A DNA stretch of 64,000 nucleotides, taken from positions 64,001-128,000 of the forward strand of contig CAVSBQ010000002.1 of the NCBI GenBank assembly GCA_963726265.1. The letters are read 5' to 3'. Positions 55,401-61,400 of the stretch are shown piece by piece (position 1 is the stretch's first letter; each line of letters starts with the position of its first letter). The DNA is from Candidatus Aenigmatarchaeota archaeon. GTDB lineage: Archaea > Aenigmatarchaeota > Aenigmatarchaeia > QMZP01 > QMZT01. The position numbers are program-made.

Positions 55401-58400
55401 ATCTCGAAATCCCTCTGCCTGGATGCCAGGATAAACGACATGGCATCCGGCCTGTCCGGAGGCATGAAAAGAAGGCTGAACATCGCCTGCGCCCTCATGC
55501 ACGAACCGCAGATACTGCTCATGGACGAACCGAGCATCGAGGTGGACCCGGTTTCCAGGGGCGAGCTGTGGAAGATGATAGAGATGATAAACAGGCTCGG
55601 GACCACCATAATAATCTCAAGCAACCACATGGAGGAAATAAACTACCTTTGCAACCGGGTGGCCTTCCTGGAGCAGGGCAGGAAGCTCTACGAAGGCGAC
55701 ACCCGCGAGGTCATGTCAGCCCTGCATTCAAGGGGCTTCGGGCCGTGATGGCGGTTTTATGTCTCTAAAAAAACTCATTTATTTGCTGACGAAGGACACG
55801 GGGATTTTTTTAAGGGACATAAGGAGCTTCATGCTGCTTTTCCTTACGCCTATATTCATAGTCATCCTTGTCGGCGTGGCCTTCCTGAGCACGCAGCCTA
55901 GCAACGTCCCGATAATAATCTGCGGAGAAAGCAGGAGCGGCCTTTACAACGACACCGCCTTTGTCATGAAAAATTCCGGCGTCTTCGACGTCAGGGAATA
56001 CGAGGGCAACTGCGACGAGGTGATTTCGCAGAACATAAAGAATTCCATGGTCAGGGCTGGCATCATAATACCGCCCGAAGGCCTGAACATGACGGTAAGG
56101 ATTCTGATCGACAACACGAAACCGGTGAGCGCTTACATACAATCCTATTTCAACCTCATCACCAAGGACCTCTCCCAGAAGCTGATAAACGCCATGATAG
56201 GAGACATGTGGTCGAACACGCAGAACATTTCCGGCGAGATTGACAAAACCCATGCCGAGCTGGTTTCGAGCGCGGCAACGCTGAATTCCGTTGCCGCGGA
56301 ACTGGACACGAAAAAAAGCGAGGTTGAGGATGCAGCAAGGAGGCTTTCAGCCGTAGAGCTTGCAAAGGTGAACGTGGAAACCTCCCTGCTGACGCTGCAG
56401 GGCATCAAGAACAGCGCGGTGTCCATCTCGTCCAACATAAACAGCGTCGACCAGAGGATGCAGGCGGTTTCCAGCAGCGTTTACTCCATGAACCTGAGCC
56501 CGCCGCTCCAGGCCATGATAATTGACAACATAACCGCCGCGCAGAACAGCCTTATGTTGGCAAGGAGCGGGGTCAACGACCTGGAATGGAACATAAACCG
56601 CACGAAAACGAATCTCGAGGGCTCGGAAAAAATCCTGGATGACGCGGACGTGGGCACGCTTGGGCCCAAGCTGAACGGCATCGCCACCTCGCTTTCGCAG
56701 TCATCGTCGTCCGTCAGGAAAATAAGGGACGACATAAACGCCCTGGCGGACAACCTGCTGGCCGCAAAGGGCTTGATTACGGATTCCATGCAAAAATACA
56801 AGCCGGAGTATTCCGAGCCCGTGAACTCGGAAATAGCGTGGTATTTCGGCAACAAAAGATACATAGACTTCGTCTTCCCGACCATCCTCGTGATGATACT
56901 CATGCTGATGTCCACTTTCCTGGCTTCGACAAGCTTCATCAGACAGAGGAGCACGGGCCTGCTCAAAAGGATTTCGATCTCGCCCACAGGCATGAACTTC
57001 CTGCTGCTAGAAAGGATGATGCTCAACGCCATAATATCTCTGATACCGCTGCCCTTCATCCTGGCCGCCGGGGTGCTAGTCCTGGGCATAAGGATAAACA
57101 TCTCGAACGTGGTGCCCATAATTTTCATCTGCGCCATCCTGAGCCTGGTTTTCGTGCTGCTGGGTCTCATAATAGCAAGCTTTTCGAAAACCGAGAGCAC
57201 GGCAATCCTCGCATCGCTTATAATCGTAATACCGATGATGTTCCTGTCCGGGACATTCACGCCCTACGAGGCATTCCCGCCGCTGCTGAAGCAGGTGGCC
57301 GTTTCCATGCCCATAACCATTTCGGCAAGGCTCATAGAAGGGCTGACGTTCTACGAGCTGCCGCTTCCCATGATGGGCATGCTTGTTGCGTATCTTTTCG
57401 TGTATATCGTGGTGGCGGCAATCGTAGCCAGACTCGTCATGAAAAGAGGGCTTTGAAAAACGGCATTCTAAAACGGGAAGATGATGCTATCTTTTATTTT
57501 TATACCACTCCACCATCTTCTCCAGCTCGCTTTCGAAATCGGCATTCGGCTTGTAGCCCAGCTCTTTCGCTTTCGTGACGTCGTAGTTCCTGTTGATGGT
57601 CAGGACTTTGAGATACGCTCCCATCCCCTTCATGCCAGCGACCAGGCTCACCAGCCAGTAAGGGAGGATTTTCGGCCGTTTGCCGAGAAGCCTTACCAGC
57701 TCGCTTGCGAATTCCATGAACTTCACCGGCTCCTCGTCCGCGATGTTGTAAACGCCTTCGACATTCGTTTTTAACGCGAGCCTGAACGCCTGCGCGGCAT
57801 TCGAGATGTGGGTCACGTGAGTGAGGTTGTTGGTGTTGGGGATGGGGAAGCCCTTTTCGAGCAGCTTAAGGTTCTTCAGCCACTGCGGCGAGCCGGCGCC
57901 GTATATAGGCGCTATCCTGAAAATGACGCTCCGGATGCCGGCATCAAGAATGAGCTTCTCTGCCTCGAGCTTAGACCAGCCGTAGAAGTTCTCCGGGCTT
58001 GTTGGATACGATTCGTCGGCCATGCCGGTGATTTCGCCGTAGACCGAGACGCTCGAGGAAAAGATGATTTTCTTCGCATGGGGGCAGGCTTCGAGAACCG
58101 CCCTCGTGCCCTCGACGTTCACCATGAAAAGCTCGTCCTTCGTTTTAGTGTATGAAACCATGCCCGCCAGGTGGACTATCGTGTCGATGCCTTTCGCCGC
58201 CTTTCTCAGCCCGTCCAGCGTGTCAGGCTTCGTTATGTCGCCTTCGATAATCCTGCATTTGGGATAAAGCTTCTTCGCGTTCGCATAATCCTGCGCCAGC
58301 ACCGCTATGTCCTTCCTGAGGCCGGCGATTTCCCTCATCACGTTTAAGCCTAGGAAGCCGGTCGCGCCCGTGACCAAAAGCATATTTATATCTAACTTTC

Positions 58401-61400
58401 CCAATTTAAAGCTATGAAAATCGGCAAAGTCGAGGCATACCTGCGCGAGACCATCGAGAAGGACGGCGTCGTCTTCTTCGGCCTCATAGACCCGATGGAC
58501 GAAAACAAGGGGAACCCGCTGAAATTCGCGAAGGTCTTCGACGAGGCAGGAGCGGACATCATACTCATAGGAGGCTCGATAGGAGCCGAAGGAGAAACGT
58601 TCAACAACGCCGTCAAGCGCATAAAGGAGGCCGTCAGCAAGCCCGTCGTGCTCTTCCCGGGTAATATCGGCGGCGTTTCCAAGAACGCGGACGCGCTCTA
58701 TTTCATGAGCCTGCTCAATTCCAACAACCCTTACTGGATAACCGGCGCGCAGGCGCTCGCCGCGCCCATGATTGCAGCGTCGAAGCTGGAAGCGATTCCC
58801 ACTTCTTTATTGATAATCGAGCCGGGCGAAACGGTCGGCTGGATAGGAGAGGCGAAGCCCATCCCTTATCACAAGCCCGACATCGCCGTCGCATATGCGC
58901 TCGCAGGCAAGCTGCTGGGCCAGAGGGTGACAATTCTGGAAAGAGGGTCTGGCGCGCCCGGGCCGGCGTCGCCGGAGATGTTCAAGGCGGTCAAGGAAGC
59001 TGTCGGCCATCCGGTCATATGCGCAGGCTCGAGCAAGACCATGGATGACATAAAAACCACCATAATGGCCGGCGCGGACGGCGTGCACATCGCGTCGCTG
59101 GTTCAGCATGCCGAGGACCCGCTGGACATGGCGAAGAAGCTGGTCCACTTCACCAAAGGCGTCGGGAAGGAAAAGCTGAAGAAATAATTCTGTTTCTTTT
59201 TCTTTACAAATTCTCGAGGATGTCCTGCGGATTATTGAGTATCACGTCGGGTCCGAACTTCTCCAGGCGCTCCTTGCTGTGGTAGCCATACGTGACGGCG
59301 ATGAGCTTCGCGACATTCGCAGCTCGTCCGGCAAGCATGTCGACTTCCATGTCGCCGATGAAGGCGCATTCGCTGTGCTTCACGCCGAGCTTCTGCATGG
59401 CGAGCAGTATCTGCGCCGGGTCGGGCTTGAGCTTGTTTATGTCCTTCCCTCCCACCACGACGTCTACGTGCTCTCCGAAGCCGAATTGCGCCAGCAGCCG
59501 CCTGATTATGAACTCGTGCGTGTTGGAGGAGATGCCGATTTTTATGCCGCGCTTCCTCAGGCCCGAAAGCACGTCGGCTATGCCGTGGAAAGGGCGGATT
59601 TCCTTTTCCAGCTGGAGGAAGTATTTTTTGTAGGTCTCGTTGGCTATCTCGATTTCCTCCTGGCTTATGCCGAGCTCCGCGTAGAAGTTCCTGTAGTTGC
59701 CGTCGAGGACATGGGCGAACTCGTCTATGGAATACTGGAACCTCTTGCCCATCTCCCTGCAGACCGCCTTGTAAATCTCGTATATCGTCTTCATCGAGTC
59801 CGCGATGACGCCGTCGAAATCGAATATGACAGCTTTAATCATTAGCATAAATGGGTCGAGCGCTTTTAAATTTAAGCGGCAATTAAAATTTGAATGGAAA
59901 AGATGCGCATGGCGCAGCCTGCGCCGGTCAACAGCCGGCCTTTTCTCATAGGCGGCATAGACGTCGGCTACCACACGTCCATCGCCCTCCTAGACCTCTC
60001 GGGGAGCGTCGTTTATCTCGAGACCTTCGTCCAGCCGCAGAATTCCGACGTCCTCGAACGCATGACCGAGTTGGGCAACGTTCTCATACTCTCGACGGAC
60101 CGCGCCAGGCCGCCGTCGCAGGCTAGGAAAATCGCCGCTTCCATCTCAGCCAAAATGCTTTTGCCAGCAAAAAACATGACCAAGAAGAAGAAGCGCGTCA
60201 TAATCGAGGACTTCGCGGAAAGCGACAAAACCCTGCCGAAGCCGAGGATGAACGACCATGAAAAAGCCGCGCTGGCCTCGGCGATATTCGCCTACCGGAA
60301 ATTCCGCCCGGGATTCAAGAAGCTGGAGGACAGGCTGAAGAAGGAGAATGAAGCAAACCTCGAGAAGAGGAGAAGGGAACTTTTCCTCAGAATGACGAGG
60401 GATATTTGATTTATCAGACATGTTATATTATCTGGCCGAGAAACGTCACGAAATAGCCGCCCTCGCAGCTCGCGACCCATCTTCCAAAAGGAAACCACAT
60501 AACGTTATAGTCGCATAAAAGTTCGCCGGTTTGCTTGTCTATCGTCCCGTCTATGCTGGCTTTTTCCTGCAGCATTCTGTCGTGAAGAGTCTGGTCGTCA
60601 AGCCAGGGCGCCCAAGCCAATAATAACAGGATTGACAAAAATGCAAATACGGCAATTTTTAGGTTTCTGTTCATTTTCATAAATTAAAGTTATGATGCAA
60701 GTTATTAAAATTTTCTTAAAACAAGTCCTCCGAAAAGTTCATCTGTAATTATCGCTCCAGTATTCTTTCACGGCGTCAAAGCTTTGCCTCTTGAAGAGGG
60801 TTTCCGGTTTTGTTCTGTCTCCGCCAATTAGTCCCCAGTGAACCGGCGTCTCCTGGCCCGGTTCTTGATAGTCGTACAAATCAATAGAGAGCCCGATGAC
60901 TTTGGGGTTGTCGAGAAGGGTTCTCAAGGAATTTACATACTGCTCCTTTTGCCATTCTTCGGAATAGCCTCCTGCCCTGGGATAATTGAAAGGCAAACTA
61001 TCAATATTGTCGGCGGGATATCCCATCGCCCAGACAAAAATTCCCTTGTCAATGGCAGACCATTTGTCCAAAGCTACTTTCAGATCCCCCCAGTCGTCTA
61101 TTTTATCATAAAAACCGCTGGCGACATTGAAGCCGAATGCATCAAAGCTGACATCTGCTTCTATCATCCGTTCAACAAAATCCGCGAGAAGAATTTTCCC
61201 GTGGTCATCCGTGTTGTCAAGGGATTCTTCCGGCCTGAATTCAGTCGGCGTCAGGGGGATGGCAATCTTCGCGCCGGGGTCGATAGTTTTAATTAGTTCA
61301 ACTTCCCATTTGATCCAGTCTATAATCCATGCATTTGTGATATTCTCCTTTATTTCATGGCCGGCGAAATTGGATTCAAGCTCGACCAGATATACGTCAA

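What a model noticed while it worked through the whole genome (the two positions that open the first line are those of the whole stretch)
57487..59187. An SDR enzyme replaces glycerol-1-phosphate dehydrogenase (EgsA) beside GGGP synthase
The genome has the whole archaeal ether-lipid route but no EgsA. An extended-SDR gene (g00157) lies head-to-head with GGGP synthase (g00158); across the order this SDR and EgsA exclude each other and occupy the same gene slot. It is the likely non-homologous source of the G1P backbone (or reduces a geranylgeranyl-DHAP intermediate).
Evidence so far: No EgsA-type match here. Of 36 order genomes >=88% complete, 12 have a full EgsA (E<1e-27, call 84); the SDR ortholog (E<1e-45, 47-67% identity) is in 22 of the 24 without EgsA and 1 of the 12 with it. 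It is divergent to GGGP synthase in 22 of 23 loci; in 4 of 6 EgsA loci examined GGGP synthase is the neighbour, and ftsY or MC1 flanks are shared with SDR loci. Pair near in 44 of 90 order genomes. Invariant nucleotide-binding glycines and YxxxK, model pLDDT 95.
(Added by a program. Inside this text positions count along the whole contig: contig position 64,001 is position 1 of the stretch shown here. "Call 12" and the like, gene names such as g00115 and contig names such as C1 are that model's own, and its searches are not shown. The text may have been shortened before it was handed on; [...] marks where a part breaks off. The agent that wrote the report below was given it as the finding of a first reader that could run no searches.)

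Follow-up and report, generated by a model that had tools for sequence, protein, structure and literature searches.

The report
Alternative route to archaeal lipid backbone
Many small archaea lack the enzyme thought essential for making the glycerol backbone of their membrane lipids, and instead carry a reductase paired with an altered lipid-attaching enzyme, which probably forms an undescribed route to that backbone.

Summary
Observation confirmed and extended. An extended SDR (57487-58383, -) faces GGGP synthase across 30 bp in an Aenigmatarchaeota genome with no EgsA, GpsA, GlpD or glycerol kinase found.

New here: the GGGP synthase itself is altered. It has lost the tyrosine held to fix G1P stereospecificity, gained His/Gln on strand 8, and belongs to one clade. 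Among 136 typed genomes of the phylum, 82 with this variant have the SDR in 70 and full EgsA in 2; 54 with canonical GGGPS have the SDR in 3 and EgsA or an EgsA-like gene in 52. The trio recurs in 3 Asgard genomes, and the gene pair in contigs with Micrarchaeota-named relatives; the variant was absent from 48 Thermoplasmatota GGGPS typed. The SDR lacks NDP-sugar motifs and resembles lipid-acting reductases.

Best reading (0.5): the variant prenylates DHAP and the SDR reduces geranylgeranyl-DHAP. Rivals: the SDR makes free G1P (0.22) or G3P (0.12). That the pair stands in for EgsA at all: about 0.85. No assay exists; product chirality is unknown; 12 genomes keep both SDR and EgsA.

The parts
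57487..58383 (-). Extended SDR, 298 aa, proposed geranylgeranyl-DHAP (or DHAP) reductase
   Evidence: Pfam Epimerase and 3Beta_HSD over cut-off; no NCBIfam equivalog cut-off reached; AF2 model pLDDT 94, extended-SDR fold
58348..58371 (-). Nucleotide-binding motif TGxxGxxG, residues 5-12
   Evidence: T5, G6, G9, G12 invariant in 28 orthologs
57970..57984 (-). Catalytic YxxxK (Y134, K138); N89 and S110 complete the tetrad
   Evidence: All four invariant in 28 orthologs; tetrad roles are established SDR knowledge, recalled
57598..57663 (-). C-terminal helical hairpin, residues 241-262, hydrophobic and basic; possible membrane or lipid-tail contact
   Evidence: Helices 242-251 and 255-262 in the model; mean hydrophobicity 0.30, 2.7 basic and 0.8 acidic residues per sequence in 28 orthologs; membrane role inferred
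58384..58413 (.). 30-bp intergenic stretch with two TATA-like boxes (TTTATA 58385-58390 for GGGPS; TTTAAA 58405-58410 for the SDR): likely one bidirectional, leaderless promoter
   Evidence: 29-30 bp spacing and AT boxes at both ends in 10 of 35 divergent pairs; promoter role inferred from position, no transcript data
58414..59187 (+). Variant group II GGGP synthase, 257 aa; only GGGPS match in the genome
   Evidence: TIGR01769 198 bits, cut-off 161.55; one match in G000; model pLDDT 89; variant clade SH-aLRT 96 with motif columns removed
58933..58941 (+). I174-L175-E176: the Y-x-E motif with Tyr (A. fulgidus Y165) replaced by Ile; catalytic Glu kept
   Evidence: Alignment to 4MM1; role of Tyr and Glu from PMC9385802 section 7; Tyr absent in all 82 variant, present in all 54 canonical (this residue defines the two groups)
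58807..58809 (+). L132 in place of the second conserved Tyr (A. fulgidus Y124)
   Evidence: Leu in 23, Tyr in 58, Phe in 1 of 82 variants; Tyr in 53 of 54 canonical, one gap
59023..59031 (+). A204-G205-S206 in place of the GGG phosphate loop
   Evidence: AGS in the window's subclade, AGG or GGG in other variants
59086..59097 (+). H225-I-A-S on strand 8 in place of V-T-G-T; new His/Gln near the glycerol site
   Evidence: His 45, Gln 34, Phe 2, Thr 1 of 82 variants; Val 48, Asn 3, Asp 2, Ile 1 of 54 canonical; orientation into the barrel inferred, not measured
59204..59848 (-). HAD-family phosphatase, convergent neighbour; not counted as part of the system
   Evidence: Pfam HAD_2; beside the pair in 8 of 39 SDR loci, all of the own family

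Best explanation
The two genes form a two-step route to the first ether lipid that needs no G1P dehydrogenase. The variant GGGP synthase attaches geranylgeranyl to the free primary hydroxyl of dihydroxyacetone phosphate (DHAP): the Tyr that reads G1P's chirality is gone, the catalytic acid and Mg-binding Asp remain, and a new His/Gln could hold a C2 carbonyl. The SDR then reduces the ketone of geranylgeranyl-DHAP, probably with NADPH, to geranylgeranyl-glyceryl phosphate, which DGGGP synthase and CarS carry on. The SDR, not the prenyltransferase, would set the backbone's hand; G1P hand is the default guess. Shown: gene pairing, residue changes, co-distribution, absence of known backbone genes. 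Inferred: substrates, cofactor, order of steps, chirality. That the pair stands in for EgsA by some mechanism: about 0.85; this particular order: 0.5.
For: (1) Three-way co-distribution in 136 typed genomes of 274 searched: variant GGGPS 82 (SDR 70, full EgsA 2, EgsA-like 6); canonical 54 (SDR 3, full EgsA 42, EgsA-like 10); canonical plus SDR without EgsA 0 of 54; variant plus full EgsA without SDR 0 of 82. Leaving out the 35 variant genomes used to build the SDR profile, 35 of 47 still have it. (2) GGGPS type and EgsA switch together inside genera g29 and g115. (3) Out-of-phylum test: 3 Asgard genomes with the variant lack EgsA and carry the SDR (E 2e-91 to 8e-98) although it is unlinked; 2 control genomes with canonical GGGPS have EgsA and best SDR match 1e-54. 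(4) Metagenome loci: an SDR within the fetched locus in 42 of 66 Tyr-less and 0 of 14 Tyr-bearing GGGPS. (5) Where it is not beside GGGPS, the SDR sits beside a DGGGPS-like gene in G113, G118, G119 and G114 or beside EgsA in G023, G024. (6) The SDR family matches lipid-acting models most often: HpnA 38, OleD 32, SdmB 20, GalE 5 of 42 members at E<=1e-20; 0 of 42 have the GalE-type Asn or the Arg of the RD motif; the end of strand 2 is non-acidic in 36 and followed by Arg/Lys in 33 of 42 (motif meanings recalled). (7) No G3P source: GpsA domain in 1 of 91 order genomes; no FGGY kinase or GlpD domain in G000; TIM present.
Against: No enzyme assay. The variant GGGPS arose once, so the link with the SDR is one origin, and kin are not independent. 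Five variant genomes (G111, G112, G123, G124, G260) have no SDR but a divergent EgsA-like gene, which suggests some variants accept G1P; 7 more have neither (80-87% complete; G117 has a cut SDR at a contig end). The SDR persists in 13 genomes with full EgsA (3 canonical, 2 variant, 8 without group II GGGPS; 3 of those tested have another GGGPS beside EgsA), so it may have a further role. In Cloacimonadota, which lack EgsA, a related SDR lies in the lipid operon beside a Tyr-bearing GGGPS (15 of 18 loci), and that GGGPS family was shown to use G1P (PMC7852524 section 22), which favours an SDR making free G1P; orthology there is not shown. Fold searches rank NDP-sugar enzymes first, in ties. The lipid-locus SDRs are not resolved as one clade. 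The window's own SDR lacks the Arg of the NADP signature.
Confidence: 0.5

Rival explanations
1. The SDR is a non-homologous G1P dehydrogenase: it makes free sn-glycerol-1-phosphate, from DHAP or by reducing the aldehyde of D-glyceraldehyde-3-phosphate (which gives the G1P hand; my own chemistry), and the variant GGGPS still takes G1P, His/Gln compensating for the lost Tyr.
For: Anti-correlation with EgsA and shared slot; five variant genomes with only an EgsA-like gene; Cloacimonadota operon with an SDR and a G1P-using GGGPS.
Against: 0 of 54 canonical-GGGPS genomes rely on the SDR alone; if the product were plain G1P the GGGPS need not switch with it, yet it does, also where the genes are unlinked; the SDR resembles lipid-acting reductases; in 4 of the 5 exception genomes the EgsA-like protein has SHNG where 28 of 28 order EgsA have SHDG, so it may not be a plain G1PDH.
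Confidence: 0.22
2. The SDR makes free sn-glycerol-3-phosphate from DHAP and the variant GGGPS has switched hand to accept G3P, giving isoprenoid ether lipids on the bacterial-type backbone.
For: The lost Tyr is one of three residues proposed to set stereospecificity; a new polar residue appears on another strand; explains why SDR and canonical GGGPS never go alone; no known G3P source in these genomes; canonical GGGPS already has weak G3P activity.
Against: Variant genomes with an EgsA-like gene and no SDR; lipid-type features of the SDR; no structural test of the pocket could be run; DGGGPS was not compared between the two groups.
Confidence: 0.12
3. The SDR is lipid-related but not the backbone source (tailoring or salvage), or merely travels with the variant GGGPS; the cells take glycerol phosphate or lipids from a host, and the altered GGGPS serves an imported or different acceptor.
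For: SDR kept in 13 genomes with EgsA; one origin of the association; a cultured Micrarchaeon without G1PDH was inferred to depend on its host's lipids (PMC8975820, passages); SDR family monophyly unresolved.
Against: SDR in 70 of 82 variant genomes against 3 of 54 canonical; co-occurrence without linkage in Asgard; several gene arrangements (35 divergent, 20 SDR-first, 2 GGGPS-first of 57 pairs); DGGGPS, CarS and polyprenyl synthase retained.
Confidence: 0.13
4. The SDR is an ordinary NDP-sugar epimerase or dehydratase for surface glycans.
For: Top PDB sequence and fold matches are NDP-sugar enzymes; source annotations say so.
Against: Lacks the Asn and RD motifs seen in most of the genome's own sugar-cluster SDRs; far below GalE and RmlB cut-offs; PDB is rich in such enzymes and the Z-scores are ties; gives no reason for the link with EgsA loss.
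Confidence: 0.03

Closest known systems
Canonical archaeal route: EgsA (NF002022) then group II GGGP synthase (TIGR01769; PDB 4MM1)
   Same: Same gene slot and pathway position; GGGPS passes the TIGR01769 cut-off, keeps the Mg-binding Asp and, in the window, the catalytic Glu; DGGGPS and CarS follow.
   Different: No EgsA; unrelated SDR in its place; GGGPS lacks the conserved G1P-binding Tyr and has His/Gln on strand 8; proposed order is ether first, reduction second.
Eukaryotic acyl/alkyl-DHAP route with its NADPH reductase (yeast Ayr1p, mammalian PexRAP/DHRS7B); recalled, no call
   Same: Chain is put on DHAP first and an SDR then reduces the C2 ketone.
   Different: Those are classical SDRs on fatty chains giving the G3P hand; the ether is made by a flavoenzyme, not a TIM-barrel prenyltransferase. 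No homology beyond the SDR superfamily is claimed or was tested.
Lipid-acting extended SDRs: HpnA (TIGR03466), OleD (NF042422), SdmB (NF052578), Gox2253 (PDB 3WJ7)
   Same: Most frequent family matches; 3WJ7 is rank 2 by Foldseek and is matched full length by the family profile.
   Different: Scores are a third of the cut-offs or less; none is known to act on a glycerol-phosphate lipid.
Cloacimonetes GGGPS-DGGGPS locus (PMC7852524)
   Same: Archaeal-type ether genes without egsA or araM; an extended SDR of the same broad group in the operon in 15 of 18 loci.
   Different: GGGPS keeps the Tyr in those 15, lies outside the variant clade and uses G1P in vitro; these bacteria have GpsA; SDR orthology not shown.
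MoeO5 (GGGPS-fold prenyltransferase on 3-phosphoglycerate; PMC9385802 section 7)
   Same: Precedent that this fold can change its three-carbon phosphate acceptor.
   Different: Antibiotic pathway, C15 donor, different acceptor; not compared here by sequence.

Membership tests
EgsA/AraM G1P dehydrogenase | Sequence match to the metal-dependent dehydrogenase family (NF002022, PF13685) | tested here: not met
   The SDR matches only SDR models; no EgsA in the genome
Extended SDR superfamily | TGxxGxxG, N-S-Y-K tetrad, Rossmann fold with C-terminal substrate domain | tested here: met
   Invariant columns; model and fold searches, best Z 30.4, rmsd 3.2, 277 aligned
NDP-sugar epimerase/dehydratase (GalE, RmlB) | Curated score cut-off of TIGR01179 or TIGR01181 | tested here: not met
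   67 of 262 bits and 65 of 365 bits
NDP-sugar epimerase/dehydratase (GalE, RmlB) | Asn after the conserved Arg, the RD motif, and Asp at the end of strand 2 (motifs recalled) | tested here: not met
   Asn 0 of 42, Arg 0 of 42, acidic strand end 6 of 42; window has Pro, Thr-His, Ala
HpnA / OleD / SdmB equivalogs | Curated score cut-off | tested here: not met
   Window 77 of 368 (HpnA), 62 of 580 (OleD); resemblance only
Group II GGGP synthase | TIGR01769 cut-off and TIM-barrel model | tested here: met
   198 bits against 161.55; model; closest PDB sequence 4MM1, E 2e-56
Group II GGGP synthase | Mg-binding Asp and catalytic Glu | tested here: met
   D26 invariant; E176 in the window; Glu 39, Asp 43 of 82 variants
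Group II GGGP synthase | Two strictly conserved Tyr (A. fulgidus Y124, Y165) | tested here: not met
   L132 and I174 in the window; feature from PMC9385802
Group II GGGP synthase | Standard phosphate-binding loops (S-G, G-G, x-G-T) | tested here: inconclusive
   S179-G180 and G205 kept; GGG reads AGS and TGT reads IAS in the window's subclade
Group II GGGP synthase | Forms GGGP from G1P and GGPP | not testable with these tools
   Needs an enzyme assay
Eukaryotic acyl/alkyl-DHAP reductase | Classical SDR type and activity on acyl- or alkyl-DHAP | not tested
   Recalled analogy only; the window protein is an extended SDR, so membership is not claimed

The most novel reading that the evidence does not exclude
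A second, widespread archaeal route builds ether lipids on DHAP and lets a lipid-acting SDR set the backbone's hand, and that hand is the bacterial one (sn-glycerol-3-phosphate): Aenigmatarchaeota, Micrarchaeota and one Asgard lineage would make isoprenoid ether membranes with inverted chirality, by a logic like the eukaryotic alkyl-DHAP route.
Probability: 0.22. Interest if true: 0.97.

Novelty: new variant of a known kind. Interest (0 to 1): 0.82.

Why it matters
G1P dehydrogenase is treated as the hallmark of archaeal membranes. A 2026 paper states that no other mechanism of G1P biosynthesis is known (PMC13400652, passage), and its absence has been used in concluding that an ancestor of Micrarchaeota, Iainarchaeota and Aenigmarchaeota could not make an archaeal membrane (PMC12892359, passages). 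If this pair works as proposed, many DPANN archaea make their own lipid backbone, 'no EgsA' no longer means host dependence, and the chirality of their membranes is an open question that two small enzymes and a few in vitro reactions can answer. It also gives a sequence marker (loss of one Tyr in GGGPS) that predicted EgsA absence and SDR presence in the 3 Asgard genomes where it was tested.

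Tried and rejected
Hidden EgsA in the own genome: weak PF13685 hit is another gene; own 40-sequence profile finds nothing. G3P supply by GpsA, GlpK or GlpD: not found. ESM Atlas gave only family-level look-alikes. Fold searches do not separate SDR subtypes. Nanoarchaeota-centred sample: no GGGPS match in 171 genomes. Orthology of the Cloacimonadota operon SDR: its profile picks the window SDR first among the own genome's SDRs (98 against 57 bits), but it is not the best match of the archaeal profile in G616 or G584 and the tree backbone is open: not shown. 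Monophyly of all lipid-locus SDRs: neither shown nor rejected. Complex prediction of SDR with GGGPS was not available, so binding is untested. No fold search of the GGGPS model and no ligand geometry of its pocket could be obtained. No transcript data were examined. Literature searches that found no description of this pair or of a Tyr-less GGGPS clade: (open-licence library only; supplements not read, and they may list these genes).

Full report
The locus. The window holds an extended SDR (57487-58383, minus strand, 298 aa) and a GGGP synthase (58414-59187, plus strand, 257 aa) head to head. Orthologs start at the ATG at 58383, so 30 bp separate the start codons; this spacing, with an AT box at each end, recurs in 10 of 35 divergent pairs and reads as one bidirectional leaderless promoter (inference). 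Named relatives of the GGGPS are Aenigmatarchaeota. The genome (1.13 Mb, 88% complete) has a DGGGPS-like UbiA, a polyprenyl synthase, CarS and TIM. It has no EgsA by three searches, and no GpsA, FGGY kinase or GlpD domain over cut-off. Mevalonate genes and GGR were not tested.

Of 36 order genomes at least 88% complete, 12 have EgsA; the SDR ortholog is in 22 of 24 without and 1 of 12 with. Over 91 genomes, 52 have the SDR ortholog, 35 EgsA, 4 both; 48 of the 52 have it beside GGGPS, 3 of them split over contig ends. Flanks read as ftsY and MC1 are shared between SDR loci and EgsA loci.

A review (PMC9385802; I read section 7 whole, and passages; the primary structure papers were not read) names three strictly conserved residues held responsible for G1P stereospecificity and catalysis: Y124, Y165 and E167 in the A. 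fulgidus enzyme. Its group II numbers (Y134/Y178/E180) do not match chain 4MM1 as aligned (130/172/174), so I mapped by the Y-x-E motif. The window protein has L132, I174 and E176, AGS for the GGG loop and HIAS for VTGT. Every GGGPS typed beside an SDR in the phylum lacks the Y165-type Tyr.

Phylum-wide test. 274 genomes at least 80% complete were searched for GGGPS, EgsA and the SDR. Of 143 GGGPS hits, 7 weak ones (E above 1e-20) were left out and 136 were typed from fetched DNA. Tyr-less variant: 82 genomes; SDR in 70, full EgsA in 2 (G092, G238), a divergent EgsA-like gene in 6. Canonical: 54 genomes; SDR in 3 (G062, G226, G230, all with EgsA), full EgsA in 42, EgsA-like in 10, neither in 2. 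At the strand-8 position variants have His 45, Gln 34, Phe 2, Thr 1; canonical enzymes never His or Gln. The SDR cut-off (E 1e-75) sits in a narrow gap between 4e-78 and 1.5e-71, and the profile was built from 42 of these proteins; without the 35 variant genomes that gave sequences, 35 of 47 still have the SDR. The variant GGGPS is one clade (FastTree 1.00; SH-aLRT 96 on 74 of 228 rows with motif columns removed), so this is one origin and no p-value is offered. Type and EgsA switch together within genera g29 and g115. Arrangement varies: 35 divergent, 20 SDR-first and 2 GGGPS-first among 57 pairs; in family f11 the SDR lies by a DGGGPS-like gene.

Outside the phylum. In 121 genomes of an Asgard-centred sample, 93 had GGGPS; of the 30 best-scoring loci, all typed, 3 (G473, G484, G462) are variants; the lower-scoring hits were not typed except G305 (canonical). 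These 3 have no EgsA and each has the SDR elsewhere in the genome (E 2e-91 to 8e-98), while two canonical controls have EgsA and no such SDR. A protein 80% identical to one of these GGGPS is named Baldrarchaeia by its source. In 80 metagenome loci, an SDR match (E below 1e-8, partial ones included) lies in 42 of 66 Tyr-less loci, 27 of the 37 with room on both sides, and 0 of 14 Tyr-bearing ones; 3 of those 14 carry the variant's other residues with Tyr present. Some of these contigs may be the same organisms as the searched genomes. Two such pairs belong to clusters named Micrarchaeota (8 of 10 proteins found), and two variant proteins are named Iainarchaeota or Diapherotrites; source names can disagree with GTDB placement, and whole genomes of these phyla could not be searched. 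The variant was not found in 48 typed Thermoplasmatota GGGPS, and no GGGPS was found in 171 genomes of a Nanoarchaeota-centred sample.

The SDR. It has TGxxGxxG and the N89-S110-Y134-K138 tetrad and a confident model. PDB searches put NDP-sugar enzymes first, in ties. Against NCBIfam its family matches lipid-acting models most often (HpnA 38, OleD 32, SdmB 20, GalE 5 of 42; none at cut-off). It lacks the Asn and RD motifs that most of the genome's own sugar-cluster SDRs carry; the family mostly shows an NADP-type strand-2 end, though the window protein lacks the Arg; and it has a hydrophobic, basic helical hairpin (motif meanings recalled). The lipid-locus SDRs fall into several supported subclades of one broad non-sugar group whose backbone is unresolved.

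Mechanism. An SDR that made plain G1P should at times be found as the only backbone source of a canonical GGGPS; this is 0 of 54. EgsA should serve the variant alone if it took G1P freely; full EgsA without SDR is 0 of 82. The simplest reading is that the pair shares an intermediate the standard enzymes do not use. DHAP has the same primary hydroxyl and phosphate as G1P but no C2 stereocentre, which fits loss of the stereo-reading Tyr and gain of an N-H donor; a lipid-type ketoreductase then fits the second step. This is inference (0.5). It works like the eukaryotic alkyl-DHAP route (recalled) without belonging to those families. Which hand the SDR gives is unknown.

Against. Five variant genomes lack the SDR and have an EgsA-like gene, four with SHNG for the otherwise constant SHDG; seven have neither. 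Thirteen genomes keep the SDR beside full EgsA. Cassette transfer alone could keep the two genes together where they are adjacent. In Cloacimonadota (18 of 51 sampled genomes have GGGPS) an SDR of the same broad group lies two genes downstream in 15 of 18 loci, with a Tyr-bearing GGGPS; the 3 loci without it have Phe there. That family's GGGPS used G1P in vitro (PMC7852524; sections 22 and 23 and passages). If that SDR is the backbone source, it argues for free G1P; orthology is not shown, and an earlier AI note on that operon preferred a tailoring role (a lead, not support).

Literature. Passages read: PMC6431249, PMC12892359, PMC8975820, PMC13400652. They record G1PDH-less DPANN and bacteria with GGGPS and DGGGPS, and call the alternative source unknown. 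Nine searches showed no paper on this pair or on a Tyr-less GGGPS clade; most hits were seen only as listings, subscription journals are not covered and supplements were not read.

Verdict. A real, conserved two-gene system that very likely stands in for EgsA (about 0.85), best read as a DHAP-first ether route (0.5), directly testable in vitro. New variant of a known pathway; interest 0.82.

Noticed in passing
L377-L393 and L338 (Cloacimonadota-centred sample): Conserved operon: polyprenyl synthase, DGGGPS, GGGPS, CpsB/CapC-type phosphatase, extended SDR, methyltransferase, LPG-synthase-TM protein. The 3 loci without the SDR (G604, G596, G615) have Phe for the GGGPS Tyr and a higher-scoring SDR elsewhere (E 1e-62 to 1e-74), two of them beside succinyl-CoA-ligase-like genes.
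   Followed up: partly
L142-L147 (G274, G275, G278, G279, G280, family f32); L486: A second, strongly divergent GGGPS paralog (CLDTGM motif; PcrB family) directly follows the variant GGGPS; L486 has another odd paralog (YLETGAR). Could be a stand-in for another prenyl transfer step.
   Followed up: no
L397-L405, L188: A divergent EgsA-like family (NF002022 E 1e-30 to 1e-45); in G273 it sits with DGGGPS and canonical GGGPS; in four variant-GGGPS genomes it has SHNG for SHDG.
   Followed up: partly
L222-L224 (G095, G096, G116): EgsA lies beside a GGGPS that the group II profile misses, probably group I, while the SDR is kept elsewhere; in family f7 the SDR sits at a constant site after a ribosomal-protein-like gene whatever the GGGPS type.
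   Followed up: partly
L153 (G238): SDR and variant GGGPS in tandem, with a full EgsA two genes away on the other strand: a possible snapshot of one system displacing the other.
   Followed up: no
L424, L429, L431: GGGPS with the variant's Thr-Asp and Gln but Tyr at the motif, and no SDR in the fetched flanks: possible reversion.
   Followed up: no
window 59204-59848 (-): HAD phosphatase convergent on GGGPS in 8 loci of the own family; a HAD-like gene also precedes the SDR in G118. Could be a lipid-headgroup phosphatase.
   Followed up: no
window 54360-54572 (-): Small protein that reads as an archaeal histone (recalled); in 11 relatives' loci it lies near the SDR, whereas here an ABC-transporter pair (55053-57456) sits between.
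   Followed up: no
window 61886-63050 (-): A DNA-methyltransferase-like ORF (62043-63050) whose apparent C-terminus continues in another frame (61886-62134): possible frameshift or assembly error (family recalled, not scanned).
   Followed up: no
L010 (G084) and L013 (G038): One in-frame TAA inside the G084 SDR and one inside the G038 GGGPS: broken genes or assembly errors.
   Followed up: no
G000:C2:865591-866322 (-): ORF with a motif I recall from type 2 isopentenyl-diphosphate isomerase; not scanned.
   Followed up: no
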